Both the position numbers and the translations under genes were made by a program. The notes beneath the pieces are model-generated. The model ran no database searches. It worked only from the letters and a program-made list of their open reading frames with translations, and was not told the origin of the DNA. From an uncultured Alphaproteobacteria bacterium (GTDB lineage: Bacteria > Pseudomonadota > Alphaproteobacteria > Rhizobiales > Xanthobacteraceae): a stretch of 64,000 bases of DNA. The stretch covers positions 72,467 to 136,466 of the forward strand of contig CAWBUO010000005.1 of the NCBI GenBank assembly GCA_963791955.1. The letters run 5' to 3'. Below, one piece after another: positions 8,805-32,987 of this stretch. Each line of letters opens with the position of its first letter. Within the stretch, counting starts at the first letter, position 1.

Positions 8805-9169
8805 CGGAGGCTTTTGGTGCGATGCACTTAGTCCGGAATTGGCACTAAAGCGAAGTGGAGTTTGTCCGCTTTGACGGTCGCTGTCAGAGGTCAAGCGGAC
8901 TAGCCCCGCTGAGGCCGAAACCAACTCCTGACCCGCAGCCGACATCGGCAGCTGCAGCTACAACCAGTCTGGACCAAATCGGTCCATCCTCCTCGCTGAT
9001 GACAATGGCGCGGGTTCGGTTCTGATAGCGTCGAGGTGAAAAGGAAATGACTTGGGCCCTGTTCCACGCGCGGCGTGGCGCCGGGATCAATCCGGAAATT
9101 AATCCTCCTAAACCTGCCCGGGGCCGCGAACGACCCGACATCGATCCTGCAGTGCCCTTACCCTTGCCG

Positions 9170-9706
9170 CTAATTTTTCTTTTGTGCGCCGATGAGGACG
9201 AAGGCGATTTTCACCGGCTTATCGCTTTTGTTGCGCCAGGCATGCCGGGTTCCATTCTGAATGATGACGTCATGCGGCTTGAGATGAACTTGTTTGCCAT
9301 CATCAAGCTCCGCCCAGACCTCGCCCTCGAGAATAATGCCGTAATCGACTGTTTGCGTCCGGTGCATGCCCGGATTGTCGGGCTCCATGGCTGCCGCCAA
9401 ATCCGGCACGTGTTCGGCAAACTCCTGAAAGCCGGCGACAGGATCGATGGTGGCAAAGACGGAATCGGGGGCGAACGTCACGATCATCAACCGCGTCTCG
9501 CCGGGAGCCAGCGGGACGTAGGTGCTTTTCTCCGAGACGACATCGCTGCCGTCAATCGGAAGCGTCGGCACCCCCGGCGTCGACCAGATCAGCGTCGCCG
9601 ATTGCCCCGGAATATTCTTGAAGGCTTTGCTTCGGCGGGTACCGCCGTCCGACACGATTTTTGATTTGCCGCCGGAAGTTCCGGTGACGACGCGACGCAC
9701 GCTCAT
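9170..9706 (-). CDS. Cupin domain protein
   Basis: C-terminal cupin barrel: HRTQTVDYGIILEGEVWAELDDGKQVHLKPHDVIIQNGTRHAWRN. Same strand as and 63 nt downstream of the luciferase-like gene. Confidence 0.7.
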   Translation of the reverse strand: MSVRRVVTGTSGGKSKIVSDGGTRRSKAFKNIPGQSATLIWSTPGVPTLPIDGSDVVSEKSTYVPLAPGETRLMIVTFAPDSVFATIDPVAGFQEFAEHVPDLAAAMEPDNPGMHRTQTVDYGIILEGEVWAELDDGKQVHLKPHDVIIQNGTRHAWRNKSDKPVKIAFVLIGAQKKN

Positions 9707-9769
9707 AACATCCTCCCTTTTTCTCATTTGCGAAAGCGACGAACGGTATACGGCAAGGCTCGACGGCGA

Positions 9770-10837
9770 TCAGACGTTCGCCATGACGTCGGACCATTGC
9801 TGCATCATCTCCTTCTCATGGCCTGGCACCATGTTGACGCCGATCTGGTTGTAGCCCAGCGCCTTGAGGCCCTTGACCCGCTCGACGAGTTCGGCGCGCG
9901 TGCCGGTGAGTGTCAGGCCGCGAACGACGTTGGCGGTGACGTGCTTTTCCTCCGGCCGCAGAAACATTAGATGGCCGCGATGATTGGTGAGATAGCGTGC
10001 ATCTGGCGGTTCGTAGGTCTCATACACTTTGCGATAGGCTTCGAGTTCGGCTTTGAACGGAAAGCTGTCGCCGACCGGAAACACCGAGCCGAACTGGTCT
10101 TCTTCGACCAGGTTATGAAATGCGATGGCCGCGTAGGGCCCCGCCTGCGCCATGGCGCGTGGACTGTCGGCAGCCTCACCGTCGTTGAGCACGCAGCCGC
10201 CAAATCCGCAGACCGCATAAACATCCTTGACGTCGCGGCCATGCTGCCGCCAGGCGGTGCGGAATTCTTCAAGCTCCGCCTGCTCGCGCTGCGGATAGGT
10301 GGCGCTACCGATCCATCCGGCGCCGAGCTTGGCGGTCAGCGCCCGGGCCTTGGGACCAAACGCGGAGAGGAACGTCGGTATCCGGTCCTTGATGTTGATC
10401 AGGCCGAGATCTGGATTGAGGAAACGGATCTTGTGGGTGCCGCCCTCCTCGGACCATTCGACGGTCTTGCCCTGCAAAAGGCCTTCGACGGCTTGCACGT
10501 ATTTTTCCAGCCGCGCGAGAGTGACCGGCCCGAGCCCCATTGTCCGGCGTCCGGTATAGCCGGTCGACGTGCCAAATACGACACGCCCGGGCGCAAGCGC
10601 ATTGAGCGTCGCAAGCGCATTAGCGGCGACGGCGGCATTGCGATTGGAGGGAATGAAAACACCGGCGCACAGTTTGATGCGCGAGGTTTTCAGCGCGGAA
10701 GCGCCCATGGCCACGAGCACATCCGCGCTCAGCAATTGCGTGTCGTAGAACCAGACGTGGCTGCAGCCCAGCTCTTCCGCGCGCTGCGCGTCTTCCCATG
10801 ATTTGGCTTTGGTTGGCAGGAAAACGCCGAGATCCAT
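9770..10837 (-). CDS. Luciferase-like (LLM class) oxidoreductase, probably F420-dependent
   Basis: TIM-barrel LLM pattern (MDLGVFLP...WFYDTQLL...FGTSTGYTGRRTMG). Lies 27 nt downstream of fbiC on the same strand. F420 dependence is inferred from context only. Confidence 0.75.
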   Translation of the reverse strand: MDLGVFLPTKAKSWEDAQRAEELGCSHVWFYDTQLLSADVLVAMGASALKTSRIKLCAGVFIPSNRNAAVAANALATLNALAPGRVVFGTSTGYTGRRTMGLGPVTLARLEKYVQAVEGLLQGKTVEWSEEGGTHKIRFLNPDLGLINIKDRIPTFLSAFGPKARALTAKLGAGWIGSATYPQREQAELEEFRTAWRQHGRDVKDVYAVCGFGGCVLNDGEAADSPRAMAQAGPYAAIAFHNLVEEDQFGSVFPVGDSFPFKAELEAYRKVYETYEPPDARYLTNHRGHLMFLRPEEKHVTANVVRGLTLTGTRAELVERVKGLKALGYNQIGVNMVPGHEKEMMQQWSDVMANV

Positions 10838-10864
10838 TGTTGACTCCTCCCGATGGCGCCGGAC

Positions 10865-13300
10865 TTAAGCGTCCGCACGCGTTAGATCGGCCGTCTGGCG
10901 GTCGCGTTTTTGTTGAGAGACCGGCGTTACCGGCACCGGCCGCAATGGCGCGGCGCCGAACGAAGCCGCGGTCCGCTTGGCCGGTGCGCCGGCGTACAAA
11001 GTAGTGCGCTGGCGCGGGCGTCTGCCACAGGAGTTGATCGCCTGCTCCATCGCCTCAGGCGACATTTCCTCGCCGTGCAGCGCGCCGGCGGCGCGCGTGA
11101 TGCTCTCATTCATGAGCGTGCCGCCGAGATCGTTGGCTCCCGCATGAAGGCAAGCGGCGACCCCGTCGCCCATCTTGACCCACGAGGTCTGGATGTTGTT
11201 GACGAGCGGATGCAGCGCAAGACGCGCGATTGCATGCATGAGCACGGCTTCGCGGTATGTGGGTCCGAGCCGGCTCAGCCCGTGAAGATGCAACGGCGTC
11301 TCCATCGGCACGAACGGCAGGGGCACAAACTCGGTGATGCCGCCGGTGCGGCTCTGCAGATCGCGCAGCCGCAGCAGGTGGCGCGCCCAATGCCGATAGC
11401 GGTCGACGTGGCCGAACATGATCGTCGCGGTCGATCTGATACCGAGGCGATGCGCGGTCTCGACGATGTCGAGCCATCGCGCCGTCGTCACCTTGTCGGG
11501 GCAGATCACGGCGCGGACTTCGTCATCGAGCACTTCCGCCGCCGTCCCAGGCAACGAGCCAAGCCCTGCCTCTTTCAATGCGGCAAGAAACGTTTCCACG
11601 GAAACGCCGAGCGACGAAGCGCCGTGCCAAATTTCGAGCGGCGAGAAGGCGTGAATATGAATCTGCGGGCAGACTTCTTTTATGGCCCGGCAAATCGCGA
11701 TGTAGGTCGAGCCGTCATAATCGGGATGAATTCCGCCCTGGAGACATACTTCGACCGCGCCCCGGTCCCAGGCTTCCGCTGTGCGCCTTTGAATCTCTTC
11801 AAGGCCGAGGTCATAAGGACGCCCCCGCAAGTGGTCGCTCAACTTGCCTTTGGAGAAGGCGCAGAACTTGCAGCGATAGCTGCAGATATTCGTGTAGTTG
11901 ATGTTGCGCGTGACGACGTATGTTACCTCGTCCCCGCAGGTCGCGGCGCGCAGTGCGTCGGCGGCTTCGCACACCGCATGAAAAGCGCTACCGCGGCTGC
12001 CGAAGAGCGCGACGATATCGTCTTCGGCCAGGGTTTGGCCCGCGACGGCTCGCGCAACGATCCCGTCGTGCGCTGTGTGGCGCAGCGCACGTGCGGGCTC
12101 GACGGCCGGCTTGCTCAACGTTCCCGGCATCCATTGGTCGGCGCGTGCATATCCTTGGCTGTCTGAGGCGCGCGCGACGATGGTGCGCAGCCCCGGATCG
12201 AGCCACTTTTCGGGATGCTCGACGTAGGCCGGATACACCGCAAGACGCTCGACCAAAACCTTGCCGGCTCTGGAGGTCTCTTCCGCGAGCCCCTCGATGT
12301 GGGGCCAGGGCCGTTCGGGATTGACGTGGTCGGGAGTGACCGGCGACACGCCGCCCCAATCGTTGATGCCCGCAGCGATAAGCTGTTGAAGCGCACCGGG
12401 CGACAGATTCGGCGGCGCCTGAACATTCATCTCGGCGCCGAAGACAAGCCGAGCCGCCGCAATGGTCCACAAATGGTCTTCGAGGTTCGGCTCCATGTGG
12501 CCGGCCATTCGGGTGCCGGGCTTGGCGCGGAAGTTCTGAACGATGATTTCCTGGAGGTGTCCGTATCGCTCGTGTAACGCGCGCAGTTCGAGCAAAGCCG
12601 CCAAACGTTCGCGGCGAGACTCACCAATGCCAATCAGGATCCCGGAAGTGAAGGGAATGGCCGCTTCGCCTGCAGCTCTGATGACCTCGAGCCGCACGGC
12701 GGGACGCTTGTCGGGAGAGCCGTGGTGCGGACCACCGCGGGCGCACAGACGCTCGGCCGAACTCTCAAGCATCAGACCTTGCGACACCGAAGTCGACCGC
12801 AAGGCCGAAAGCTCCTCCGCACTCATCACCCCGGCGTTGAGATGCGGGAGCAGGCCCGAGTGTTCAAACACCAGCGAGGCCATCTCACGGAGGTAGGAGA
12901 TTGTCGTGGCGTGGCCGAGCTGCGCCAATTCATCGCGGGCAATGCGATAGCGCTGCTCCGGCTTGTCGCCGAGCGTAAACAGCGCCTCATGACAGCCGGC
13001 CTCCGCGCCGGCGCGGGCGATAGCGAGGACCTCGTTTGCACTCAAATACGCCCGTGTGGTGCGCCGCGGCGGATGTGCGAATGTGCAGTAGCGGCAGCTG
13101 TCACGACACAGCTGGGTGAGCGGGATGAAGACCTTTCGCGAATAAGACACAGTAGCGCCGTGGCCGCGATCCCGCAATTCCGCCGCGGCCTTGATCATAG
13201 CGGGAAGATCGCTGGCATCGTCCAACGAGGCAAACACGTCGGCGTCGGACAGCCGGCGACCGTCCACGGCAAGAGCCAACGCGCGGCCAAAATCGCTCAT
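10865..13300 (-). CDS. fbiC: FO synthase (7,8-didemethyl-8-hydroxy-5-deazariboflavin synthase), fused CofG/CofH
   Basis: 811 aa with two radical-SAM motifs, CRDSCRYCTF and CSYRCKFCAF, one in each half. Confidence 0.9.
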   Translation of the reverse strand: MSDFGRALALAVDGRRLSDADVFASLDDASDLPAMIKAAAELRDRGHGATVSYSRKVFIPLTQLCRDSCRYCTFAHPPRRTTRAYLSANEVLAIARAGAEAGCHEALFTLGDKPEQRYRIARDELAQLGHATTISYLREMASLVFEHSGLLPHLNAGVMSAEELSALRSTSVSQGLMLESSAERLCARGGPHHGSPDKRPAVRLEVIRAAGEAAIPFTSGILIGIGESRRERLAALLELRALHERYGHLQEIIVQNFRAKPGTRMAGHMEPNLEDHLWTIAAARLVFGAEMNVQAPPNLSPGALQQLIAAGINDWGGVSPVTPDHVNPERPWPHIEGLAEETSRAGKVLVERLAVYPAYVEHPEKWLDPGLRTIVARASDSQGYARADQWMPGTLSKPAVEPARALRHTAHDGIVARAVAGQTLAEDDIVALFGSRGSAFHAVCEAADALRAATCGDEVTYVVTRNINYTNICSYRCKFCAFSKGKLSDHLRGRPYDLGLEEIQRRTAEAWDRGAVEVCLQGGIHPDYDGSTYIAICRAIKEVCPQIHIHAFSPLEIWHGASSLGVSVETFLAALKEAGLGSLPGTAAEVLDDEVRAVICPDKVTTARWLDIVETAHRLGIRSTATIMFGHVDRYRHWARHLLRLRDLQSRTGGITEFVPLPFVPMETPLHLHGLSRLGPTYREAVLMHAIARLALHPLVNNIQTSWVKMGDGVAACLHAGANDLGGTLMNESITRAAGALHGEEMSPEAMEQAINSCGRRPRQRTTLYAGAPAKRTAASFGAAPLRPVPVTPVSQQKRDRQTADLTRADA

Positions 13301-13995
13301 TGTGATTCAAGGACCACGAAATTGCGGTCCCACTGGGCACGGCATTCGTCGAGCAGCCGGAAGCTGCGCGTGGCGGAACGCCGTTCCATAAATTTTGTCA
13401 GATCGGAAGGCTCGTCGATATCAAGCGCGATGGCGCCGTTGCGGACGGTCGCCGGCGTGAGGCCGCGGGCGCGCGCCGCCGCAAGGTGCGGAAAATAGCT
13501 GTCAGGGCCAAACCGTAGCGGAACGGCCTCCGCCGGCGAGCAAATAATCGTATTTGAGCCGCGCTCGTCCCACGCCGGAACAATGGTGAAGGCCGGAGCC
13601 GCAGCGTGAGCAGCCAGCACGCCACGGATGTCGGCCGCCGTTACGAGCGGCACGTCACCCGGAATTGTCAGCATCGTTCTTCCGTTCGCGGCCAAACGCC
13701 CAGCCGCCGCCTTGACGGCGCCGGTATGGCCGTCGTGCGCGCCATCGGACCAGATTTCGGCGCCAAAGCGCCGCGCGATCTCGGCAGCGACCCGGTCCAC
13801 CGTGACGAGAGCGACACCCTGCAACTCGGACACGGCGGCGACGGCTGCCAGCACGTCCTCCAACATGGCGAGCGCCAGCGCCTGTCGAAGCCGGGACGGC
13901 ATAGTTTCTGCCAGCCGTTGCTTTGCGACGGCTGTTTCCTTAACGGGAATAACGGCCCAAATGTCGCGCCGCGACGCTGGTCGATCGTTCGCCAT
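13297..13995 (-). CDS. cofC: F420 side-chain precursor guanylyltransferase (CofC/FbiD)
   Basis: IWAVIPVKETAVAKQRL N-terminus typical of CofC; ~230 aa; 4-nt overlap with fbiC. Confidence 0.8.
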   Translation of the reverse strand: MANDRPASRRDIWAVIPVKETAVAKQRLAETMPSRLRQALALAMLEDVLAAVAAVSELQGVALVTVDRVAAEIARRFGAEIWSDGAHDGHTGAVKAAAGRLAANGRTMLTIPGDVPLVTAADIRGVLAAHAAAPAFTIVPAWDERGSNTIICSPAEAVPLRFGPDSYFPHLAAARARGLTPATVRNGAIALDIDEPSDLTKFMERRSATRSFRLLDECRAQWDRNFVVLESQ

Positions 13996-14067
13996 TGAGC
14001 GCTTCCATCAGGACGCGGGAAAGATAATACGCGCGTTTTTTGCCGTGACGCGAGCCGAGCGTCTGTC

Positions 14068-15057
14068 CTATTCCTTTATGACAGCGGCCTCGGCCCAACG
14101 CTGCAAAAGATCGTCGGCCAAGGATAACACGGTTTTCGCCAGTTGTTCGCGGTCGGCTAGCGACACCATCAAGGCATTTGCCGCGACGGTTGGTATGGGC
14201 AATTTGGCGGCGAGCGAAGCGTCCCTTTGATCGACGATATAGCCGTCCAGCAGGTCGCCGTAGCGTCTCGCCACTGTTTCGGCACCGACCTCCAGGCCGA
14301 GTTCACGCATCATTTTCGCCGTCGGCCCCTTCACCGCCTCGCCGCCGATAATCGGAGCGACGCCCACAATTGGCGCGGCGCAGGCACGAAGCGCCTGTCG
14401 TATGCCAGGCAACGCGAGTATCGGCTCGATGCTGATAAACGGATTCGACGGGCAAATCACAACAGCGCGGAGCCGCGGATCTGAGATCGCGGCAACGAAA
14501 TCGGGATGCGGCGCAGCCGCCGCTGCACCGTCATACGAAAAGTCCACGACCTCGGGCCGACATTGCTGTTCAACAAAATAGCGTTGAAAGTCCAACCACC
14601 CTTCGCGCGTGCGGACGCGCGTTCGTACCGGCGCATCGCTCATCGGCACGATAGCGGCGCGAACGTCAAGCCGATCCGCGAAATCGCGCACGATCTCCGA
14701 CAGGGGCTCGCCGGCGCGCAGCCTTCGGGTTCGTTCGACGTGAACGGCAAGATCGGCGTCGCCAAGACGAAACCAGCTTTCCCCTCCCAGCGCCGCCAGC
14801 GCCGTCATGAAGGACCAGGTTTCATCGCGCCGCCCCCAGCCTGTCGCCGGGTTGTCGAGACCGGCCAGCGTATAGAGGAGCGTGTCAATATCCGGCGAAA
14901 CATGCAGACCCAGGTGCTCAAAATCGTCGCCGGTATTGGCCACGACCATGAGCTTGCCGGGAGGCACGACGTTTCTCAAACCGAGCACGAGCTTGGCGCC
15001 GCCGACGCCGCCCGACAGCGCAAGAATCCGTTCGCTCTTCAGGCTTTGCGCGGTCAT
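14068..15057 (-). CDS. cofD: 2-phospho-L-lactate transferase family (CofD/FbiA)
   Basis: ILALSGGVGGAKLVLGL...VANTGDDFEHLGLHVSPDIDTLLYTLAGL; 4-nt overlap with cofE. Confidence 0.9.
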   Translation of the reverse strand: MTAQSLKSERILALSGGVGGAKLVLGLRNVVPPGKLMVVANTGDDFEHLGLHVSPDIDTLLYTLAGLDNPATGWGRRDETWSFMTALAALGGESWFRLGDADLAVHVERTRRLRAGEPLSEIVRDFADRLDVRAAIVPMSDAPVRTRVRTREGWLDFQRYFVEQQCRPEVVDFSYDGAAAAAPHPDFVAAISDPRLRAVVICPSNPFISIEPILALPGIRQALRACAAPIVGVAPIIGGEAVKGPTAKMMRELGLEVGAETVARRYGDLLDGYIVDQRDASLAAKLPIPTVAANALMVSLADREQLAKTVLSLADDLLQRWAEAAVIKE

Positions 15058-15854
15058 CGGAACAGATCTTCAGCGGGATCGCGCAACAAGCACGCCGCCG
15101 GCGACGCCTTTGCGGACCACGTGAGGCCGCGCACGACAATGATCGGCGTTGCTTCATCCGCCTGCCCCATCAGCAGCGAAGCCGCCGCTGCGATTTCGTC
15201 CGCGAAACCCGTTTCGCTGACTTTGAGCGGGCGTCCGTAAAGATCCGTCCGGCCGCGAAGATCGGAGAGCGCCGGCAAGCCGGCGGCCCCCAGTGCCACA
15301 CCCACCGTGCCAAGCCGCCAGGCCCGGCCGAGACTGTCATTAATGATGACGGCAACACTTTTGCCGAGCTGAGAACGAATGCCTTCATGCAATCGCCGCG
15401 CCGATCCATCGGGATCCTCCGGCAATAGCAATACCGGCTTCGCGCCCTGCCGCGGGTCAACGTTCGATTGGTCGACGCCGGCATTGGCGAGCACGAAACC
15501 GAGCTTGTGCTCGACGATCAGGACGCCCGGTCTGTGCCGAAGCACGTCGCGCGATTGCCGCAGAATGACCTCCACGAGCCGCGCGTCCTTTCGCACCTGC
15601 GCCGACAGCGCCAACGCCCGCTTGCCCGGCTCGATGGTGTCGAGATCGACATAGCGTCCCTCTGCTTTCGAGACGATTTTTTGCGCAACGACCAGGACAT
15701 CGCCGTCGCGCAATGCGGGCCCAGCTCTCTCCGTAATGTCGCAAATCAGGCCGAGCAGATTAGTTCCGGGCTCGATGAGCGGCACACCCTGCAAGGGGAG
15801 GAGCCGCAAATCACGGGTTTCGGCGGCGTTGCGCGTGCAGTGTTCCACAGCCAT
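15054..15854 (-). CDS. cofE: Coenzyme F420-0:L-glutamate ligase (CofE), single-domain form
   Basis: DGDVLVVAQKIVSKAEGRYVDL, IINDSLGRAWRLGTVGVALG. At 266 aa it has no FbiB-type C-terminal nitroreductase-like domain. Confidence 0.85.
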   Translation of the reverse strand: MAVEHCTRNAAETRDLRLLPLQGVPLIEPGTNLLGLICDITERAGPALRDGDVLVVAQKIVSKAEGRYVDLDTIEPGKRALALSAQVRKDARLVEVILRQSRDVLRHRPGVLIVEHKLGFVLANAGVDQSNVDPRQGAKPVLLLPEDPDGSARRLHEGIRSQLGKSVAVIINDSLGRAWRLGTVGVALGAAGLPALSDLRGRTDLYGRPLKVSETGFADEIAAAASLLMGQADEATPIIVVRGLTWSAKASPAACLLRDPAEDLFR

Positions 15855-15962
15855 CGAAAGCGATCATCGCCGGGACGCGCGCGGCCAGCAAGGGCACACG
15901 AACGGTATGGCGCACTCAAAATCGGCTGGGCGAGCTGCTGTCGCGGTGGATGACCTGAACGC

Positions 15963-16001
15963 GACGAAAATCAAAGTCCCGGCCGCTGACGGCCGGGACT
16001 T
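15963..16001 (-). terminator. Rho-independent terminator downstream of the 16042..17247 gene
   Basis: Perfect 12-bp stem AAGTCCCGGCCG/CGGCCGGGACTT with a 4-nt loop (15974-16001), followed on the minus strand by TGATTTTCG. Confidence 0.7.
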
Positions 16002-16041
16002 CAACTTCATAAGCATTTGCCGGAATTCCAGGGAGGCTTAG

Positions 16042-17247
16042 TTACGCCCAGCTCGTCTTTACCCGCACGGGCACAAGCTCCGACGTAGGCACGCCGACAG
16101 CGGCAACCGAACGGAAGAAGCCATTCTGCCATTGCCCGACAGTGTAGGCGATGTTCTGCAGCTGAGTCCGCAGGTCGATCTCGCCAATCACGGTCTTGAA
16201 TGTATGGCTTTTCAGATACGCCGTGACGGCCTCTTTATCGACCGTGCCGGCGCCCTCGAATGCCTGCGTGAGAACCTCCCCATTTGCATACAGATAGAAG
16301 CAGGCGTTGTAGTCGGAATCGACGCCGGTGATTTCTTTGTGCAGTTTCAGGAAGGCCCGGGTCTTGTCGTTGTCGGGGACGCCGCCAAACCCGATGACAT
16401 TCTCCGCCGACGCGCCGTACTTGCCGCCGAAGCCCGCGAAAGCGCAGCCGATACCGTTGTAGTAAGCCTTCACATTGAAGTTCTCGATCTTCGCCTGATC
16501 GGTCAAGCCGAAGGTGTCGGGCGGATATGAATAGGCGATGAAGGCGTCCGGATTGCTGGCCTTCGCCGCCTTGATAACCGGCGCATAATCCTGCGTGCCG
16601 AGCGGATAGGATTTGTCGTAGACCAGTTCGAAGCCGGCTGCGGGGAACAGCTTCCTACTGATGTTGGCGGACTCGATGCCGTACTCGTCGGCGACGTTGA
16701 CCATGGCGATCTTGCCGCCCATCTGGCCGCCGTCACGCAGCTTCTTGAGAACATCAACGACCGCGGAGCTGTACTGCGTGGTTGTTCCGTTGGCGAAGAA
16801 CAGTCGCGGATTTTTCCGAACCAGTCCGGCGCCCAGGTCGGTGACGCAGGCGACGGCAAGTTGCGGATAGCCCAGTTTCGCGAAAGTGGGCACGGTGGCC
16901 ACGTTGAAACCGGTGCTATACAAGCCGACGATCCAATCGGCCTTATCGATGCTGGCAAGGCGCTCGATCGCCTTAATGGCTTCCGGCGGCTGTGTGTGAT
17001 CATCGTACTCGATCAGCTCCACCTTGCGCTGGCCATCTTTCAACTTGAGACCGCCGGCCTGGTTCACCTGATGAGCCCAAAGCCGCCACGGCGGGAAAAA
17101 CGTGGCGGCGGCGCCCGGAGCAAGCGGCCCGGTCTTTGCGCCAACTACGCCGATCTTGACAGTCGCGGACTGCGCACCGGCAGTCCGTATGAAAGGAGCC
17201 GCCAGCGCCGTCGCGCCGGCAAATTTCAGCAATTCGCGTCGTCGCAT
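16042..17247 (-). CDS. ABC transporter substrate-binding protein (LivK/Peripla_BP_6 type), orphan
   Basis: Signal MRRRELLKFAGATALAAPFIRTAGA; no adjacent permease or ATPase genes. Confidence 0.85.
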   Translation of the reverse strand: MRRRELLKFAGATALAAPFIRTAGAQSATVKIGVVGAKTGPLAPGAAATFFPPWRLWAHQVNQAGGLKLKDGQRKVELIEYDDHTQPPEAIKAIERLASIDKADWIVGLYSTGFNVATVPTFAKLGYPQLAVACVTDLGAGLVRKNPRLFFANGTTTQYSSAVVDVLKKLRDGGQMGGKIAMVNVADEYGIESANISRKLFPAAGFELVYDKSYPLGTQDYAPVIKAAKASNPDAFIAYSYPPDTFGLTDQAKIENFNVKAYYNGIGCAFAGFGGKYGASAENVIGFGGVPDNDKTRAFLKLHKEITGVDSDYNACFYLYANGEVLTQAFEGAGTVDKEAVTAYLKSHTFKTVIGEIDLRTQLQNIAYTVGQWQNGFFRSVAAVGVPTSELVPVRVKTSWA

Positions 17248-17437: not shown

Positions 17438-18376
17438 GTGAATTCGGTCGCCGAAGCCGGGGCGAAGGTCGCGACATTGCGCATCGGCGGCGGTGCCGTG
17501 GGTTTCAACTGGCTGCCGGTGATTGTGGCCGATCGCCAAGGGATGTTCGCGCGGCGCAATCTCGCGATCGAGATCAAGCGCCTTGGCGCCGTCGACAAAG
17601 CAACCGCGGCGGTCAAAAACGGCGAACTCGATCTTGTCATTACACCCCCCGAGGGAGCGATCCGCGATTGCGCCGGCGGCGGCAATCTTCGGATCATCGC
17701 CGGCAATGTCAATCGCCTGCCGCTTTCGCTGATCGCCAATCCGCGCATCCGCACGATCGAGGGCCTTCGAGGCGGCCGCCTTGGCACTTCATCGCTGACC
17801 GAGGGCACCGCGCTTTATACGATGGAGGTGCTGCGCCAGCACGGCCTGCATTACCCGGGCGACTACGAGTTTGCCGTTGTCGGCGTCCACCCGGCACGCT
17901 GGAAAGCGCTGCAGGAAGGGACCATCGACGCGGCCGTCCAGCTTATTCCATTGAACTTCGTGGCCGAGGACGCCGGCTTCAATAATCTCGGCGAGGTGAC
18001 TGATTACATACCGGAAATCGTTTTCAGCAGCTTGATTGTCGATCGCCTGACGGCTGAAGACCGCCGCAAACAAATTGTCGGTTTTCTTCTGGGCATCATG
18101 GAGGGAACGCGGTGGCTTTACGATCCCGCCAATGACGAAGCGCTTCTTGCCCTGACGAAAGAATTGACCCAGGCCGAGGGAAAATACGGGCGGCAAGCCC
18201 TCGAATACATGCGCGAGAAGCGGGTATTTTCGCCTGACCTTTCCATCCCCGATGCGGCGTTCGCGAAATCGATCGAGTTGATGCAGAAGGCCGGCTTGGC
18301 GGATGAGCATCTGGCGGCGCGCGCAAAAAGCGTTCTCGACGACAGCTTCCGGCTCGCTGCGCTGAAGCCCGTCTGA
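17438..18376 (+). CDS. NMT1/THI5-like (SsuA/TauA-type) binding protein without an obvious signal peptide
   Basis: GTG start preceded by GGGAGG; ...LRIGGGAVGFNWLPVIVADRQGMF...; periplasmic-binding-protein type 2 fold pattern. Confidence 0.65.
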   Translation: MNSVAEAGAKVATLRIGGGAVGFNWLPVIVADRQGMFARRNLAIEIKRLGAVDKATAAVKNGELDLVITPPEGAIRDCAGGGNLRIIAGNVNRLPLSLIANPRIRTIEGLRGGRLGTSSLTEGTALYTMEVLRQHGLHYPGDYEFAVVGVHPARWKALQEGTIDAAVQLIPLNFVAEDAGFNNLGEVTDYIPEIVFSSLIVDRLTAEDRRKQIVGFLLGIMEGTRWLYDPANDEALLALTKELTQAEGKYGRQALEYMREKRVFSPDLSIPDAAFAKSIELMQKAGLADEHLAARAKSVLDDSFRLAALKPV

Positions 18377-18393
18377 CTTATCAAATTTGCCCA

Positions 18394-18768
18394 ATGGCCG
18401 TTCCGCCTTTCGACATGATCCCCGACGCTAGAACTGCAGTCCGCGTCGTGTGCGGAGTGTTTTTTCTGCCGCACACGATCGCAAAATTGCGCAACATCGA
18501 TCGGGCATCGATCCTGTTCGATAAAGTCGGCTTTCGGCCGCCGCATCCGTTTGTTCTGCTCACGACCAGTATGGAACTGGTCGCCGCCTTCGGCTTGATT
18601 TCGGGGTTGTATCCCCGGACAGGCGCGATCGTCGCGGCAATCGTGCTGATCGGCGCGGCTTACGCCATCGGCCGCAACCATGGCTTGATGTGGCGATGGC
18701 AACACCCGGGTATCGAGTACATGCTGTTTTGGGCGATTGTCTGCCTCTGCGTCAGCTTTCTTCCGTGA
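18394..18768 (+). CDS. DoxX family membrane protein
   Basis: 124 aa with four hydrophobic segments; RVVCGVFFLPHTIAKL is typical of DoxX. Confidence 0.65.
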   Translation: MAVPPFDMIPDARTAVRVVCGVFFLPHTIAKLRNIDRASILFDKVGFRPPHPFVLLTTSMELVAAFGLISGLYPRTGAIVAAIVLIGAAYAIGRNHGLMWRWQHPGIEYMLFWAIVCLCVSFLP

Positions 18769-18914
18769 ACGCTCAAGGCAGGAGATGATTACTTGACGGC
18801 TCCTGATACGGAGTGGCCCCGCCAGGCGACGGCGCAATGTGCTATCCTGGTTGCCAGTTTGCGTAGTCGAGAAGCCACCAAAGTGGCCGGAAAACAGTGG
18901 GGAGGAGAGCGCCA

Positions 18915-19730
18915 ATGATCGTCCTGTCTCCGGCGCGTTCGGACGAACGGTTAAACCTCAGCACGCACGATGTGTGCGCGGTTGCCAATTCAACCGGGAC
19001 CGCATCGTACGGCGACGTCTGCTTCGCGATGCTCGAAAGGGCGCTGAATGTCGAGCACTGGGCGCTGTTTCGCTTCCGCTCGGGCAATCCTCTCAAATGC
19101 GTTGCCACGGCAAGCAAGCGGGATAAAGCCGCAGCCAAAGAAAACTGCGACCGCTTCGTCGGCCGATGTTACAGCGTCGACCCGTCCGTGAAGGCCGCCA
19201 GCGCCAGACTTTCGGCGCCCACTCTGACGAAGATGGCCATCGACGACATCGAAGACCCGCAATATCGGCACTGCTTCGAACTGACCCACGTGCAGGAGCG
19301 GGTGAGCCTGTTTTCGTGGATCGGGCTCGATCTGTACCAACTCAGCATCTTCCGCGGTCCGCGCAAGGCGTCCTTTTCCGCTCCCGAAATGAATCATTTC
19401 GCGGCGCTCGCCAAACTGCTTCTGGCCACCGCACAGAAGCATGAGATGTTGATCGATCGCCAGCCGGGCTTTCCGCGGCATCTGAACGTCGAGGGCATCG
19501 AGCGCCTTCTCAAGCTGCACTCGCCCCAACTCAGCACGCGTGAGTGCGCGGTCTGCGCGCGAGCGGTCGCCGGCAAGACCATCGAGGGGACATCGCTTGA
19601 TCTTGACATCAAGCCAACCAGCGTCATCACCTATCGGCAGCGGGCCTATCTAAAACTCGGCATTTCCCGCATCAATGAGCTCGTCGCGCTTTTGAGCAAT
19701 CTGCACGCCGAGCGAGCGCTCGCTTCCTGA
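18915..19730 (+). CDS. LuxR/GerE-type helix-turn-helix transcriptional regulator
   Basis: C-terminal LSTRECAVCARAVAGKTIEGTSLDLDIKPTSVITYRQRAYLKLGI. ATG 18915 is preceded by GGAGGAG. Confidence 0.75.
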   Translation: MIVLSPARSDERLNLSTHDVCAVANSTGTASYGDVCFAMLERALNVEHWALFRFRSGNPLKCVATASKRDKAAAKENCDRFVGRCYSVDPSVKAASARLSAPTLTKMAIDDIEDPQYRHCFELTHVQERVSLFSWIGLDLYQLSIFRGPRKASFSAPEMNHFAALAKLLLATAQKHEMLIDRQPGFPRHLNVEGIERLLKLHSPQLSTRECAVCARAVAGKTIEGTSLDLDIKPTSVITYRQRAYLKLGISRINELVALLSNLHAERALAS

Positions 19731-19859
19731 TCGTGATGGAGTAATTCCGAACGCGGAGTCCCGGCGCTGCCAGCCGACGTCCAAAATTATGGGGACAGAC
19801 GACTGAGCGGCTTCGCACGTTCATCTGCGGGCAAATACGAGAGAATGTGGAGGCTTACA

Positions 19860-20288
19860 ATGTCCGCCGAACGCGATCGCCTCCATTTCGTCGGAAGCAT
19901 TCCATTGCCGAGCGCCGAGGACGTATTTCGCGACTTGAGCCGCGAGGTCGGCCCCTTCTTAAAACGCATGCCGGATGGCGAGACCGGAGAACGCACACTC
20001 TGGATCAGGTTTCAGCAAAAAATGCTGGCCGAGCATCCAGCCATCGAGCCCGATCCGACCCAGCCGCCGCTTCCAGTGACGCAATCCGACGGAACAGTGC
20101 TGCGTCACATTCAGCTCGCCCGGCTGAAACTGGATGCGGCGTGGGAGCCGAATGCGGGTTTGGCCGCACCGACCCCGAGCGCGTGCCGCTCATTCTTGCC
20201 GGGCATCGCGCAGCCGCCGAGATGCTGGCGTGAGGCAGCATTCCTCGGACCGCCTGTGAGCCATAGTGATTTTGCCGGCTTGATTTAA
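19860..20288 (+). pseudogene. Probable truncated conserved hypothetical gene (only the N-terminal ~90 aa look native)
   Basis: MSAERDRLHFVGSIPLPSAEDVFRDLSREVGPFLKRMPDGETGERTLWIRFQ looks protein-like. The tail (AAWEPNAGLAAPTPSACRSFLPGIAQPPRCW) looks like out-of-frame or degenerate sequence. Family assignment is from memory only. Confidence 0.3.
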
Positions 20289-20335
20289 TCTGCGCCCGCT
20301 GACGCCACCAACCGGGCCTATTGAGGACGCGACGC

Positions 20336-21016
20336 ATGGCAGCCCAATCTCCAACAATCGCTGTGATCGGTGGCACCGGCGCCGAGGGAAGTGCCATCGC
20401 GTTGCGTCTCGGCCAGGCCGGCTATCGCGTGACTATCGGCACGCGGGATTCGGCGAAGGGCACGCGGGTAACCGCCGAGCTCAATGACCTCCTCGGAAGC
20501 GAGGCGATCAGCTTTGCCTGCAACGCTATAGCAGCGACATCGGCCGAGATCGTGATTCTGACGGTGCCTTACGCTGCTCAAGAAGCAACCGTGGAGAATA
20601 TACGTGCCGCCCTCGACGGCAAGATTCTGATTGACGCCACCGCGCCACTCATGCCGCCTAAGGTCAGCAACGTTCAGCTTCCCCCAGGGGGCTCAGCCGT
20701 CGCTCACATTCAGCGCGTGCTGGGCGACAAGGTCAGGGTGGTGTCGGCATTTCAGAACGTCGCGGCGCACAAGCTTCGCGAGCTCGAGGCCGACGTCCAC
20801 TGCGACGTCCTCGTCTGTGGCGACGATGCCGACGCGCGAAGCACGACGCGTGAACTGATCACGCGGATGGGATTGCGCGCTCTCGACGCCGGTCCGGTCT
20901 GCAATTCGGCGGCGGCCGAAGCGTTGACGTCGCTTCTCATGTTTCTCAATCGCAAATACAAGGTTTCCGGCGCCGGCATCAGAATAACCGGGCTGGAAAG
21001 CGGCGGCAGCGGATGA
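20336..21016 (+). CDS. npdG: NADPH-dependent F420 reductase (Fno/NpdG family)
   Basis: IAVIGGTGAEGSAIALRLGQAGYRVTIGTRDSAKG Rossmann N-terminus and ~225 aa length, typical of NpdG. Confidence 0.8.
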   Translation: MAAQSPTIAVIGGTGAEGSAIALRLGQAGYRVTIGTRDSAKGTRVTAELNDLLGSEAISFACNAIAATSAEIVILTVPYAAQEATVENIRAALDGKILIDATAPLMPPKVSNVQLPPGGSAVAHIQRVLGDKVRVVSAFQNVAAHKLRELEADVHCDVLVCGDDADARSTTRELITRMGLRALDAGPVCNSAAAEALTSLLMFLNRKYKVSGAGIRITGLESGGSG

Positions 21017-21149: not shown

Positions 21150-22310
21150 GTGAATCCGCTTCAGCAAGCCTCGCCCTCAGGTCCGCAAACGCAGCCGCGA
21201 ACGTCGAAACGCACGAAACCGCCGTTTCGGGCCGATCACGTCGGCAGCCTGCTTCGTCCCGGGCACTTGCTTGAAGCCCGCAGCAATTTTGACAAAGGGG
21301 AAATCTCCGCTGTCCAACTGCGAAAGATCGAGGACGACGCCGTTCGGCACGCCGTCAAGCGGCAGGAGGACGTCGGCCTCAAATCGATCACGGACGGCGA
21401 ATTCCGACGCCGCTCCTGGCACATGGACTTCATCTGCCGCATCGGCGGCGTGACATCGGCGGGAACGCAACTGCGCCCATTTCAGAACGAAACCGGGGCG
21501 GTGAAGAATGAAATTGACCTGCCGAAGGTCATTGGGAAACTCTCGCTAAAAGAGCCGATCTTCGCGGACGATTTCAAGTTCCTGCAATCGCTGACCAAGG
21601 CCACGCCCAAGCTGTCCATCCCGTCGCCGAGCATGCTGCATGGACTGGGCGCCATCGAAGACAAGAGCATCTACAAGAGGCCAGAGGACTTTTGGCAGGA
21701 TCTCGTCGGGGTCTATACCGAGCAATTGCGGGCCCTGAGCCGCATCGGCTGCACTTACCTGCAGATCGATGACACGATGTTCGCGACGCTGAGCGATCCG
21801 TCCTTTCAGAAAAAGCTCAACCCCTCGGCGGGATCGCAAGACCAGCTTTACAAAACCTACATTCGCCTGGTGAATGAGTCGGTCGCCCAAAAGCCGCCGG
21901 GAATGACGCTTTGCGTCCACACCTGCCGCGGCAATCATCGCTCTGCCTGGGTCGCCACCGGCGGCTACGATCCAGTGGCCGAGGCGGTGTTCAATGAACT
22001 CAGGGTCGACGGCTTCTTTCTTGAATACGACGACGAACGCTCCGGTACGTTCGAGCCGCTTCGTTTCATCCCGAAGGACAAAATGGTGGTGCTGGGACTG
22101 CTCACCAGCAAGAAGGGTGCCCTGGAAAAGAAGGACGATATCAAACGCCGTATCGATGCGGCCGCCAAATATATCGATCTGGATCAGCTTGCGCTCTCTC
22201 CGCAGTGCGGATTTGCCTCGACCGTGCTCGGCAACCTGCTAACGGAAGACCAGCAGTTCGCGAAACTTGCCCTCGTGGTTGAGGTTGCAACGGAAGTTTG
22301 GGGCGAATGA
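21150..22310 (+). CDS. Cobalamin-independent methionine synthase II (MetE C-terminal domain-like) family protein
   Basis: PFRADHVGSLLRP...ITDGEFRRRSWHMDF, VHTCRGN and LSPQCGFAS Zn-ligand regions; GTG start. Confidence 0.8.
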   Translation: MNPLQQASPSGPQTQPRTSKRTKPPFRADHVGSLLRPGHLLEARSNFDKGEISAVQLRKIEDDAVRHAVKRQEDVGLKSITDGEFRRRSWHMDFICRIGGVTSAGTQLRPFQNETGAVKNEIDLPKVIGKLSLKEPIFADDFKFLQSLTKATPKLSIPSPSMLHGLGAIEDKSIYKRPEDFWQDLVGVYTEQLRALSRIGCTYLQIDDTMFATLSDPSFQKKLNPSAGSQDQLYKTYIRLVNESVAQKPPGMTLCVHTCRGNHRSAWVATGGYDPVAEAVFNELRVDGFFLEYDDERSGTFEPLRFIPKDKMVVLGLLTSKKGALEKKDDIKRRIDAAAKYIDLDQLALSPQCGFASTVLGNLLTEDQQFAKLALVVEVATEVWGE

Positions 22311-28184: not shown

Positions 28185-28616
28185 TTATGGCTCGGCGACA
28201 AAGACCGGAATTTGACGCTTCGTGCGCGCCTGATATTCCGCGTATGGCGGGTATGCCGCCACGGCCAATGTCCACACACGAGCCCTTTCCGCCGCGTCCT
28301 TGACCTCCCGCACGCGCATCGGACGTACGATGGTCTCATCGCGAAGCTCGATATGCGGATCGGCGCGCAGATTATGTACCCACGCCGGATCTTTCGGCGC
28401 TCCTCCCTGCGACCCGATGAGCATATAGTTATCGCCTTCCTTGACGCGCATCAAAGGCGTCTTCCGAATTGCACCCGTCTTATGGCCCCGGTGAGTCACG
28501 ATGACGACAGGTAAGCCGGTGTCGCGCAGAGTGGTGCCCTTGGTGCCGCCGCTGCTTTCATAGAGCTGGACCTGCTCACCCACCCAGTCTCGAGGGCTTG
28601 GAACATACTTAGCCAT
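28185..28616 (-). CDS. Deazaflavin (F420H2)-dependent nitroreductase/quinone reductase family protein (Ddn-like, PF04075)
   Basis: WVGEQVQLYESSGGTKGTTLRDTGLPVVIVTHRGHKTGAIRKTPLMRVKEGDNYMLIGSQGGAPKDPAWVHNLRADP. Confidence 0.8.
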   Translation of the reverse strand: MAKYVPSPRDWVGEQVQLYESSGGTKGTTLRDTGLPVVIVTHRGHKTGAIRKTPLMRVKEGDNYMLIGSQGGAPKDPAWVHNLRADPHIELRDETIVRPMRVREVKDAAERARVWTLAVAAYPPYAEYQARTKRQIPVFVAEP

Positions 28617-28879
28617 GAGTCTCCTCCCTCCGATGTCGGCGATCTGCATTACCCCTTGCGTAGTCTAAATACAGAGCGGCGAACGGCCATCCCGCCGCCG
28701 CCGAGCAGCGTGATGAACTGTCGTCGCCTCATGCGCACCCGTCCGTCAGGTTAGGGCCGTATGTTATCAAATGGTGGAACGAAATTCGCTGCGGTGCAGC
28801 GCAACAAACTGAACACGGAGTGGCGGCGACGGATCAACAGCGTCGCAACAGCGATGTCCGCGTCATGTCCAGCTACCGT

Positions 28880-32952: not shown

Positions 32953-32987
32953 GATGGTTTGATCAATGCCGTCTGATGAACCCGTCG

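What the first reader, a model, noticed from the sequence alone, without database searches (positions are those of the whole stretch)
9170..15854. Complete F420 biosynthesis operon co-oriented with a luciferase-like oxidoreductase and a cupin
Seen: cofE-cofD-(72 nt)-cofC-fbiC-(27 nt)-LLM-(63 nt)-cupin all lie on the minus strand. The cofE/cofD and cofC/fbiC pairs each overlap by 4 nt. A strong terminator (15963-16001) isolates the run from the upstream SBP gene. Established: F420 is mainly an archaeal/actinobacterial cofactor. Biosynthesis genes do occur in some Proteobacteria, but as far as I know the physiological role there is largely unresolved. Inference: the two co-transcribed non-biosynthetic genes are the best candidates for the reaction F420 serves in this organism.
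Basis: partly seen in the sequence, partly recalled or inferred. Interest (0 to 1): 0.65.

Follow-up and report, generated by a model that had tools for sequence, protein, structure and literature searches.

The report
F420 operon with conserved partner oxidoreductase
A soil alphaproteobacterium carries an intact gene set for making the unusual redox cofactor F420, followed by an uncharacterised enzyme that keeps this position in many related species, so that enzyme is a good but unproven lead to why such bacteria make F420.

Summary
On the minus strand lie cofE, cofD, cofC, fbiC, a luciferase-like (LLM) gene and a cupin gene, with the stated 4-nt ATGA overlaps and gaps of 72, 27 and 63 nt. 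A strong hairpin terminator follows the upstream binding-protein gene. All four biosynthesis proteins pass NCBIfam equivalog cut-offs.

- The LLM's nearest sequence and structure relatives are all F420-dependent (Mer, Adf, Fgd). It reaches no curated subfamily cut-off.
- Among 80 species with an LLM ortholog, 25 have F420 biosynthesis genes within 10 kb and 19 have one directly upstream. This occurs in two deep clades, so the link is real.
- The cupin is a lineage-specific partner. It is missing from several otherwise identical clusters and replaced by a fumarylacetoacetate-hydrolase-family (FAH) protein in Stellaceae. It most resembles fungal "aromatase" cupins.
- The conserved unit is larger, 9170-22310, and includes a divergent arm with Fno (NADPH:F420 reductase).
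- The window also encodes a Ddn-like F420H2 reductase, so LLM and cupin are not the only candidate users.
- No dehydro-F420 reductase is present, so "complete" carries a caveat.

F420 clusters with neighbouring LLM and Fno genes are already documented, so this is a new member of a known kind, of moderate interest.

The parts
15054..15854 (-). cofE, stand-alone F420-0:gamma-glutamyl ligase (266 aa, no FbiB-type C-terminal nitroreductase domain)
   Evidence: TIGR01916 scores 275 bits against a cut-off of 181 and covers the full model. The FbiB-type model NF009810 is matched only at positions 6-243 of 449. PF01996 matches. The stop overlaps the cofD start as ATGA.
14068..15057 (-). cofD, 2-phospho-L-lactate (or enolpyruvyl) transferase
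   Evidence: TIGR01819 scores 293 bits against a cut-off of 257, and PF01933 matches. An identical protein is recorded on a 343-kb ENA metagenome contig.
13297..13995 (-). cofC, guanylyltransferase of the 2-PL/PEP type
   Evidence: TIGR03552 scores 129 bits against a cut-off of 105. The motif RFGPDS is identical to Mtb FbiD (G163...S166), with Gly where 3-PG-activating CofC has the diagnostic Ser162 (PMC8764529). The stop overlaps the fbiC start as ATGA.
10865..13300 (-). fbiC, fused CofG-CofH FO synthase (811 aa)
   Evidence: NF006687 scores 1132 bits against a cut-off of 1018. TIGR03550 and TIGR03551 also match. Two CxxxCxxC motifs are present in the translation.
9770..10837 (-). Luciferase-like (LLM/LLHT) oxidoreductase, predicted F420-dependent, substrate unknown
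   Evidence: PF00296 matches at E 3.5e-33. The top 12 NCBIfam hits are all F420-LLM families, and all fall below their cut-offs. PDB profile hits are Mer, Adf, Fgd and fHMAD. The AF2 model has pLDDT 86.7, and the top nine Foldseek hits are F420 enzymes. Linkage to F420 genes is conserved. A GGGAGGAG ribosome-binding site sits in the 27-nt gap after fbiC.
9170..9706 (-). Cupin_2 protein (178 aa), a lineage-specific partner of the LLM
   Evidence: PF07883 scores 31.3 bits against 27.2. The nearest structures are 3es1 (function unknown) and the fungal StrC 'aromatase' cupin. It lies directly downstream of the LLM in 16 of 80 loci. Invariant residues are H115, D121, E129 and H155; T117 replaces the second motif-1 His.
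15963..16001 (-). Rho-independent-terminator-like hairpin between the binding-protein gene and cofE
   Evidence: It folds at -40.4 kcal/mol with z -4.5. An equivalent hairpin is present in relatives.
16042..17247 (-). Peripla_BP_6 solute-binding protein, a conserved upstream neighbour
   Evidence: PF13458 matches at E 8e-40. It is present upstream of the operon at 84-95% identity in 11 related loci, and its gene cluster spans 18 loci in the ORF clustering.
17438..18768 (+). NMT1/THI5-like protein (no signal peptide) and DoxX membrane protein, the start of the divergent arm
   Evidence: PF09084 matches. PF07681 (DoxX) is the precomputed annotation of the orthologues in relatives; the window DoxX ORF itself was not scanned against Pfam. 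The orthologue's N-terminus has no signal peptide. Both are conserved in 13-14 loci.
18897..19730 (+). LuxR/GerE-family regulator, the candidate regulator of the unit
   Evidence: PF00196 matches. It is conserved in 14 loci.
19845..20288 (+). Remnant of a 348-aa gene of unknown function (672-bp, in-frame-length internal deletion relative to L001)
   Evidence: blastn of L001 against the window shows L001 1843-2514 missing from the window. No Pfam or NCBIfam hit was found.
20321..21016 (+). Fno, NADPH-dependent F420 reductase
   Evidence: TIGR01915 (npdG) scores 182 bits against a cut-off of 150. PF03807 matches.
21150..22310 (+). MetE C-terminal-domain-only methyltransferase-like protein
   Evidence: NF005085 scores 405 bits against a cut-off of 313. 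It recurs next to LLM-cupin pairs that lack F420 genes (L003-L005, L037).
28185..28649 (-). FDOR-A (Ddn-like) F420H2-dependent reductase, a second predicted F420 user, beyond the IS elements
   Evidence: PF04075 matches at E 8e-40. TIGR00026 scores 101 bits against a cut-off of 46.

Best explanation
The region is one arm of a conserved 'make, recharge and use' unit for coenzyme F420 in a soil alphaproteobacterium, probably of the Xanthobacteraceae.

Shown by sequence:
- FbiC makes the deazaflavin FO.
- CofC and CofD attach a 2-phospho-lactyl or enolpyruvyl linker.
- Stand-alone CofE adds glutamates.
- Fno on the divergent arm is the predicted NADPH:F420 oxidoreductase.

Inferred:
- The LLM, which follows fbiC after 27 nt with its own ribosome-binding site, is a dedicated F420-dependent hydride-transfer enzyme of an uncharacterised orthologous family. 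It most likely uses F420H2 to reduce an activated C=C or C=O of an imported small cyclic or aromatic-derived compound.
- The cupin, a relative of fungal StrC-type cyclohexenone 'aromatase' cupins, carries out a non-redox follow-up step such as isomerisation, dehydration or tautomerisation in this lineage. Stellaceae use an FAH-family hydrolase in the same position.
- The LuxR-type regulator and the solute-binding protein would provide control and uptake.
- The direction of hydride flow and the substrate are not established.
For: - Biosynthesis and Fno assignments pass curated cut-offs.
- The LLM's nearest relatives by HMM, PDB sequence and fold are F420 enzymes. Mer scores E 1e-24 and TM 0.74-0.81. 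FMN-dependent LLMs score far lower in the sequence-profile searches and rank just below the F420 enzymes by fold.
- Of 80 species loci with an LLM orthologue, 25 have F420 biosynthesis genes within 10 kb, 19 have one directly upstream on the same strand, and 11 have Fno.
- The linkage is found in two deep clades of the LLM tree and in different gene orders: cofEDC-fbiC-LLM; fbiC-Fno-cofEDC-LLM; cofC-HyuA-HyuB-LLM-FAH.
- The LLM-cupin pair persists where no F420 gene is adjacent (L003-L005, L009, L013-L014, L037, L090).
- Cupin homologues and LLM neighbours sit among aromatic and ring-cleavage genes: hydroxyquinol-type intradiol dioxygenase, glyoxalase, FAH, SnoaL, Amidohydro_2 and DoxX.
- The cupin's closest functionally studied homologue, StrC, acts on cyclohexenone intermediates (PMC13463297).
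- Intergenic gaps are short and carry ribosome-binding sites, with no terminator-like sites.
Against: - The LLM reaches no curated F420-LLM subfamily cut-off. The best is TIGR03842 at 100 bits against 295, so F420 use is inferred from similarity and context only.
- Most orthologues (55 of 80) have no F420 gene within 10 kb, including Sphingomonadaceae whose F420 capacity I could not check.
- The closest relative, L001, has lost cofE-cofD by deletion yet keeps an intact fbiC-LLM-cupin.
- The catalytic His of Fgd and Adf and Glu6 of Mer are not conserved, so the chemistry cannot be transferred from them.
- The substrate proposal rests on heterogeneous neighbourhoods and a 21%-identity cupin homologue.
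- There are no transcription data.
Confidence: 0.55

Rival explanations
1. The LLM is an F420-reducing dehydrogenase. Like Fgd or Adf, it would oxidise a substrate to supply F420H2, which other enzymes such as the FDOR-A at 28185-28649 then consume. On this reading it is the cofactor's fuel pump rather than its user.
For: - Fgd and Adf are among its structural relatives.
- The review lists 'Fgd ... Alphaproteobacteria?' as an open assignment (PMC8498797).
- The family is highly conserved, with 53-94% identity across phyla, and has an invariant Arg/His-rich segment at R269-E297. Both would suit one fixed anionic metabolite.
- A separate F420H2 consumer exists in the window.
Against: - The Fgd model TIGR03554 scores only 28 bits against a cut-off of 420.
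- The Fgd/Adf catalytic His position is variable.
- Fno, the usual bacterial F420 reducer, is already part of the conserved unit.
- The partner enzymes (cupin, FAH, HyuAB) look like pathway steps.
Confidence: 0.2
2. The LLM is part of F420 biosynthesis. It would supply the reduction step for which these clusters have no enzyme, either dehydro-F420-0 to F420-0 (the job of FbiB-C or FbiE elsewhere) or PEP to 2-phospho-L-lactate.
For: - CofE here lacks the nitroreductase domain.
- No nitroreductase-family ORF was found among the roughly 60 window ORFs scanned, and none among gene clusters shared by five or more LLM loci.
- CofC is of the 2-PL/PEP type.
- The kinase proposed to make 2-PL has never been identified (PMC8498797).
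- The LLM holds a fixed position behind fbiC or cofC in 19 species.
- The invariant Arg/His cluster could bind a phospho-carboxylate.
Against: - In L056 and L084 a nitroreductase gene, a candidate FbiE, heads the same operon that also contains the LLM. The two therefore coexist rather than substitute for each other.
- The LLM pairs stably with cupin, FAH or HyuAB and often lies far from any F420 gene.
- L001 keeps the LLM after losing cofE and cofD.
- Needing F420H2 to make F420 is awkward.
Confidence: 0.06
3. The LLM and cupin are ordinary FMN-dependent or cofactor-independent catabolic genes that merely sit next to the F420 operon. On this reading the co-orientation has no functional meaning.
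For: - The LLM reaches no F420 subfamily cut-off.
- Many orthologues are solitary.
- F420 genes have decayed in L001 and L006 without loss of the LLM-cupin pair.
Against: - Adjacency recurs in 19 of 80 species, in two clades and in several gene orders. That is far more than the roughly 2% I would expect for four genes in a 20-kb neighbourhood (my own rough estimate).
- FMN-dependent LLMs score much lower in the sequence-profile searches, and no flavin reductase partner is present.
Confidence: 0.12

Closest known systems
F420 biosynthesis clusters of Gram-negative producers (Oligotropha carboxidovorans, Paracoccus denitrificans; Ney et al. 2017 as summarised in PMC8498797)
   Same: - The gene set is the same: fused FbiC plus stand-alone CofC, CofD and CofE.
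- F420-related genes (Fno, LLHT, FDOR) lie beside the biosynthesis genes, as described in the legend of Fig. 10 of the review.
- The host is an alphaproteobacterium.
- The physiological role of F420 is unknown.
   Different: - I could not fetch those genomes, so whether they carry this particular LLM family is untested.
- Here the LLM family, the cupin and the divergent NMT1-DoxX-LuxR-Fno arm are defined and shown to be conserved across many uncultured species.
Mycobacterial and Thermomicrobium PEP route (FbiD, FbiA, FbiB or FbiE)
   Same: The CofC substrate pocket motif RFGPDS is identical to Mtb FbiD. FbiC is fused.
   Different: There is no FbiB C-terminal nitroreductase domain and no FbiE in the window. 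How the lactyl linker becomes saturated is therefore unexplained.
3PG-F420 pathway of Mycetohabitans rhizoxinica
   Same: The host is a proteobacterium, CofE is stand-alone, and overall CofC similarity is highest to the Mycetohabitans sp. B3 enzyme (7p97, E 4e-27).
   Different: The diagnostic Ser162 is Gly here, so classical F420 or dehydro-F420 is predicted rather than 3PG-F420.
F420-dependent LLM enzymes Mer, Adf, Fgd and fHMAD
   Same: They share the TIM-barrel fold and are the best sequence and structure matches.
   Different: - Identity is only about 17-21%.
- All curated cut-offs are failed.
- Mer Glu6 and the Fgd/Adf catalytic His are not conserved.
- The family has its own invariant Arg/His-rich insertion at residues 262-297.
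Npd picrate/dinitrophenol system of Rhodococcus and Nocardioides (NpdG Fno, LLM-type hydride transferases, NpdH tautomerase). This comparison is from my own knowledge.
   Same: The logic is the same: an Fno that meets the npdG equivalog model, an LLM hydride transferase, and a small non-redox helper protein.
   Different: No Npd hydride-transferase or NpdH sequences were available for comparison. There is no evidence that the substrate is a nitroaromatic. This is a resemblance, not a membership claim.
StrC, VirC and PaltE cupins of fungal alkyl-salicylaldehyde pathways
   Same: They share the cupin subfamily motif (H-R/T-x-x-S/T-x-D-Y-G-I-V-x-E-G), a phmmer E of 8.5e-7 and a Foldseek TM of 0.72. 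PaltE works alongside an ene-reductase (PMC13463297).
   Different: Identity is 21%. The host is bacterial, the partner is an F420-type LLM, and no activity has been tested.

Membership tests
F420 biosynthesis pathway (CofC, CofD, CofE, FbiC) | Each of the four enzymes meets its curated equivalog model over its full length | tested here: met
   TIGR01916 scores 275 bits against 181, TIGR01819 293 against 257, TIGR03552 129 against 105, and NF006687 1132 against 1018.
F420 biosynthesis pathway (CofC, CofD, CofE, FbiC) | Two radical-SAM CxxxCxxC clusters in FbiC | tested here: met
   CRDSCRYC and CSYRCKFC are present in the translation. PF04055 matches in two stretches.
F420 biosynthesis pathway (CofC, CofD, CofE, FbiC) | F420 is actually produced by the organism | not testable with these tools
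   This needs fluorescence and LC-MS of cell extracts or heterologous expression.
PEP-dependent bacterial route (FbiB/FbiE type) | A nitroreductase-fold dehydro-F420-0 reductase, fused to CofE or stand-alone | tested here: not met
   CofE is 266 aa and matches only the N-terminal half of the FbiB model. No PF00881 hit was found among the roughly 60 window ORFs scanned. The gene could lie elsewhere in the genome.
3PG-F420 route | The diagnostic Ser (Mrhiz-CofC S162) in the CofC substrate pocket | tested here: not met
   The window has Gly in the motif RFGPDS, aligned to the Ser of 7p97 and the Gly163 of 6bwg (PMC8764529).
F420-dependent LLM (LLHT) enzymes | Luciferase-like TIM barrel that is closer to F420-dependent than to FMN-dependent members | tested here: met
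   PF00296 matches. The top 12 NCBIfam hits are F420 families. The top PDB profile hits are Mer, fHMAD, Adf and Fgd. The top nine Foldseek hits are F420 enzymes.
F420-dependent LLM (LLHT) enzymes | Reaches the curated cut-off of a named F420-LLM subfamily | tested here: not met
   The best is TIGR03842 at 100 bits against 295. Mer scores 77 against 349 and Fgd 28 against 420.
F420-dependent LLM (LLHT) enzymes | Binds and turns over F420 or F420H2 | not testable with these tools
   This needs the purified protein.
F420-dependent LLM (LLHT) enzymes | Phyletic restriction to genomes that can make F420 | tested here: inconclusive
   Of 80 loci, 25 show F420 genes within 10 kb. Whole genomes could not be profiled.
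Fno (NADPH:F420 oxidoreductase) | Meets the equivalog model | tested here: met
   TIGR01915 scores 182 bits against 150.
FDOR-A / Ddn-like F420H2 reductases | Meets the family models | tested here: met
   PF04075 matches at E 8e-40. TIGR00026 scores 101 bits against 46.
Cupin superfamily (metal-dependent type) | Canonical His-x-His...Glu and His metal ligands of motifs 1 and 2 | tested here: inconclusive
   H115 and H155 are invariant. The second motif-1 His is Thr117. D121 or E129 could supply a carboxylate.
StrC-type 'aromatase' cupins | Sequence and fold homology | tested here: met
   phmmer gives E 8.5e-7 to 8x0u. Foldseek gives E about 2e-11, TM 0.72 and 21% identity.
StrC-type 'aromatase' cupins | Catalyses cyclisation or dehydration of cyclohexenone intermediates | not testable with these tools
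   This needs an enzyme assay.
Single operon cofE to cupin | One transcript spans all six genes | not testable with these tools
   Only indirect support exists: the overlaps, the short gaps with ribosome-binding sites, and the absence of terminator-like sites on the minus strand in the gaps.

The most novel reading that the evidence does not exclude
The LLM that follows fbiC is the missing reductive step of F420 biosynthesis in bacteria whose CofE lacks a nitroreductase domain. It would use F420H2 to reduce dehydro-F420-0, or to reduce PEP to 2-phospho-L-lactate. That would explain how these Alphaproteobacteria obtain a saturated lactyl linker without FbiB-C, FbiE or the never-identified lactate kinase.
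Probability: 0.06. Interest if true: 0.75.

Novelty: new member of a known kind. Interest (0 to 1): 0.4.

Why it matters
Why Proteobacteria make F420 is an explicitly open question in the 2021 review (PMC8498797).

This locus and its roughly twenty syntenic relatives name one uncharacterised, highly conserved LLM family as the enzyme most consistently tied to F420 biosynthesis and Fno in soil Alphaproteobacteria. They also name its lineage-specific partners: cupin, FAH and HyuAB. That gives a concrete protein to express and a small set of substrate classes to screen.

The locus also exposes a gap in the pathway, since these clusters contain no dehydro-F420 reductase. F420-dependent LLM reductases are also sought as biocatalysts.

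The finding does not overturn anything. Similar cluster layouts have already been drawn for other bacteria.

Tried and rejected
- **LLM as Mer** (the JGI name for its homologues). Rejected: 77 bits against a cut-off of 349, and Mer Glu6 is absent.
- **LLM as Fgd.** Rejected: 28 bits against 420.
- **3PG-F420-type CofC.** Rejected on the diagnostic residue.
- **The 348-aa no-Pfam gene between LuxR and Fno as a second MetE-like protein.** BLASTP is not significant (E 0.36). It is also unrelated to the 331-aa neighbour in L090. The idea was dropped.
- **Plasmid origin or an annotated relative in PLSDB.** Only one weak hit, a 34.5%-identity LLM on a Mycobacterium sp. JS623 plasmid.
- **Sigma-70 promoter scan.** No sites were found in 8000-17500, which is uninformative for an alphaproteobacterium. 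The terminator scan missed the real hairpin.
- **Literature.** Ney et al. 2017 and Aufhammer et al. 2005 are not held. I therefore could not check whether the O. carboxidovorans and P. denitrificans clusters contain this LLM, or cite F420-binding residues. Searches for recent work on F420 use in Alphaproteobacteria or Xanthobacteraceae found nothing relevant, and Mascotti et al. 2018 offered no diagnostic motif.
- **A nitroreductase (FbiE) in the window.** None was found among the roughly 60 ORFs scanned.

Full report
**1. Observation**

| Gene | Coordinates |
|---|---|
| cofE | 15054-15854 |
| cofD | 14068-15057 |
| cofC | 13297-13995 |
| fbiC | 10865-13300 |
| LLM | 9770-10837 |
| cupin | 9170-9727 (ORF) |

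- The cupin most likely starts at the ATG at 9706, which follows a GGGAGGA ribosome-binding site.
- Both overlaps read ATGA.
- The cofD-cofC gap is 72 nt and the fbiC-LLM gap is 27 nt, each with a ribosome-binding site.
- All four biosynthesis proteins pass NCBIfam equivalog cut-offs over their full length.
- The LLM and the cupin pass Pfam thresholds.
- The hairpin at 15963-16001 folds at -40.4 kcal/mol, z -4.5. A counterpart follows the same gene in relatives.

Co-transcription is compatible with the sequence but untested.

**2. Organism and surroundings**

- Homologues of the LLM, the cupin and CofD are almost all from soil metagenomes and from MAGs labelled Xanthobacteraceae or Alphaproteobacteria.
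- A CofD identical to the window's lies on a 343-kb ENA contig.
- The operon is more GC-rich (63-65%) than its flanks (55-59%).
- Transposase and integrase genes lie at 22.7-27 kb.

**3. The conserved unit is larger than the finding**

In the closest loci (L001, L002/L082, L007, L008, L010, L012, L016-L021, L091) the same layout recurs. A binding-protein gene of the Peripla_BP_6 family and the cofE-to-LLM run lie on one strand. On the other strand, diverging from them, lie:
- an NMT1/THI5-like protein without a signal peptide;
- DoxX;
- a LuxR-type regulator;
- Fno;
- in several loci, a MetE C-terminal-domain protein.

In the window these are at 16042-22310. Fno meets the npdG equivalog model, with 182 bits against a cut-off of 150. 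About 18 kb from the LLM, beyond the IS elements, the window also encodes a Ddn-like FDOR-A F420H2 reductase (PF04075 at E 8e-40; TIGR00026 at 101 bits against 46). The LLM and cupin are therefore not the only predicted F420 clients.

**4. The LLM**

- Its top 12 NCBIfam hits are all F420-LLM families, but all fall far below their cut-offs. The best is TIGR03842 at 100 bits against 295.
- A profile of 22 orthologues finds Mer (E 1e-24), fHMAD, Adf and Fgd before any FMN enzyme in the PDB.
- The AlphaFold model (pLDDT 86.7) gives Mer and Adf as the top nine Foldseek matches, with TM up to 0.81.
- It is neither Mer nor Fgd. The curated scores fail, and Mer Glu6 and the Fgd/Adf catalytic His are not conserved.
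- The family has its own invariant Arg/His-rich segment at about residues 262-297.

**5. Linkage statistics**

I scanned one genome per species and kept the 80 best LLM loci, at 53-84% identity.

| Feature | Loci (of 80) |
|---|---|
| At least one F420 biosynthesis gene within 10 kb | 25 |
| F420 biosynthesis gene directly upstream on the same strand | 19 |
| Fno present | 11 |
| Cupin directly downstream | 16 |

- A neighbour-joining tree shows F420 linkage in two of three major clades, with different gene orders.
  - Xanthobacteraceae-like loci have cofE-cofD-cofC-fbiC-LLM.
  - Stellaceae and Rhodospirillales loci have Fno/cofE-cofD-cofC-fbiC-LLM-FAH, fbiC-Fno-cofE-cofD-cofC-LLM, or cofC-HyuA-HyuB-LLM-FAH.
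- This recurrence in independent arrangements is the main argument that the LLM is functionally tied to F420.
- Against it, 55 of the 80 orthologues have no F420 gene nearby. In one of these, L088, cofD lies 10 kb away.
- The nearest relative, L001, has deleted cofE-cofD, leaving a remnant of the cofD 3' end, while keeping cofC-fbiC-LLM-cupin.

**6. The cupin**

- It is confined to one subclade.
- Within that subclade it stays with the LLM even when no F420 gene is adjacent (L003-L005, L009, L013-L014, L037, L090).
- It is absent from L016-L021 and L091, which have the full operon.
- Its invariant residues keep only part of the classical metal site: H115, D121/E129 and H155, with Thr in place of the second motif-1 His.
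- Its nearest structures are 3es1 (function unknown) and StrC from Stachybotrys, at TM 0.72. StrC is the 'aromatase' cupin of fungal alkyl-salicylaldehyde pathways. Its relative PaltE feeds an unstable cyclohexenone to an ene-reductase (PMC13463297).
- A cupin homologue in L089 sits with DoxX, an NMT1-like protein, LuxR and a MetE-like protein. These lie among an intradiol (hydroxyquinol-type) dioxygenase, a glyoxalase, two FAH proteins and SnoaL.
- L061 adds an Amidohydro_2 decarboxylase-family gene.

These contexts point, weakly, to metabolism of aromatic-derived or cyclic enone compounds.

**7. Pathway variant**

- CofC carries RFGPDS, identical to Mtb FbiD. It has Gly where 3-PG-activating enzymes carry the diagnostic Ser (PMC8764529). 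Classical F420 via 2-PL or PEP is therefore predicted.
- CofE is the short form.
- No nitroreductase-family ORF was found among the roughly 60 window ORFs scanned. The ORF selection left sparsely called stretches, such as about 36-41 kb, largely unscanned.
- If PEP is the substrate, the dehydro-F420-0 reductase is missing from the locus. If 2-PL is the substrate, its source is unknown, because the proposed kinase was never identified (PMC8498797).
- This prompted the hypothesis that the LLM supplies the reduction. Two clade-B operons (L056, L084) contain both a nitroreductase at their head and the LLM, so the hypothesis is unlikely. It is not excluded for the Xanthobacteraceae-type cluster.

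**8. Comparison with what is known**

- The 2021 review states that F420 production is confirmed in a few Proteobacteria, with trace amounts in O. carboxidovorans and P. denitrificans.
- It also states that no F420-dependent enzyme from them has been studied, and that the reason they make F420 is an open question.
- The legend of its Figure 10 already shows Fno, FDOR and LLHT genes beside biosynthesis genes.

The kind of arrangement is therefore known. What is added here is a defined, widely conserved LLM family, its partners, and the divergent regulatory and Fno arm. I could not retrieve Ney et al. 2017 or those genomes, so I could not test whether the same LLM family is present there.

**9. 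Verdict**

- The best explanation is a biosynthesis, Fno and dedicated F420-dependent LLM unit, with confidence 0.55. The substrate and the direction of hydride flow are unknown.
- Novelty: new member of a known kind.
- Interest: 0.4.

Noticed in passing
window 28185-28649 (-): A Ddn-like FDOR-A F420H2-dependent reductase (PF04075 at E 8e-40; TIGR00026 at 101 bits against 46). The review lists this enzyme class mainly for Actinobacteria and Chloroflexi. It is a second predicted F420 user in the window.
   Followed up: partly
window 19845-20288 (+); L001 1746-2792: Relative to L001, the window lacks 672 bp (an in-frame length) from a conserved 348-aa gene with no Pfam or NCBIfam match, located between LuxR and Fno. 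A 147-aa ORF remains. The gene's function is unknown, and it is absent from some relatives.
   Followed up: partly
L001 6618-6746 against window 14086-16045; also L006 and L015: The closest relative has deleted cofE-cofD, with a remnant of the cofD 3' end still visible, but keeps an intact cofC-fbiC-LLM-cupin. L006 also lacks fbiC. L015, a complete chromosome, has cofC-fbiC-LLM-cupin without an adjacent cofE-cofD. Whether these organisms make only FO, carry the genes elsewhere, or are losing the pathway is unexplained.
   Followed up: partly
window 22730-26923: A cluster of mobile-element genes: a phage-integrase fragment overlapped by a DDE (DUF772) transposase, an IS110-family transposase and a further DDE transposase fragment. 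They separate the F420 unit from the FDOR-A gene.
   Followed up: no
window 8322-8804 (+): A 160-aa ORF matches only the C-terminal half (positions 138-293 of 293) of the ABC_sub_bind family. It is probably a truncated pseudogene just downstream of the cupin.
   Followed up: no
window 31705-34160 (-): A cytochrome P450 gene lies next to a VanA-like Rieske O-demethylase oxygenase. This is aromatic-compound metabolism in the same neighbourhood.
   Followed up: no
window 17438-18376 (+); L082 2375-3304: The NMT1/THI5-like protein conserved beside the operon has no signal peptide. It is probably cytoplasmic rather than a periplasmic binding protein, and its role is unknown.
   Followed up: partly
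L084 and L085 (Stellaceae); L090: ATP-dependent hydantoinase/oxoprolinase-type HyuA-HyuB genes lie between cofC and the LLM in L084 and L085, and next to an LLM-cupin pair in L090. This is a recurrent third partner of the LLM family.
   Followed up: no
window 10001-16000: The F420 operon has 63-65% G+C, against 55-59% for most of the window. This fits the horizontal acquisition suggested in the literature for Gram-negative F420 genes.
   Followed up: no
window 49338-51656 (-): A large molybdopterin-binding subunit of a xanthine-dehydrogenase/aldehyde-oxidase-family enzyme. It appears unrelated to the finding.
   Followed up: no
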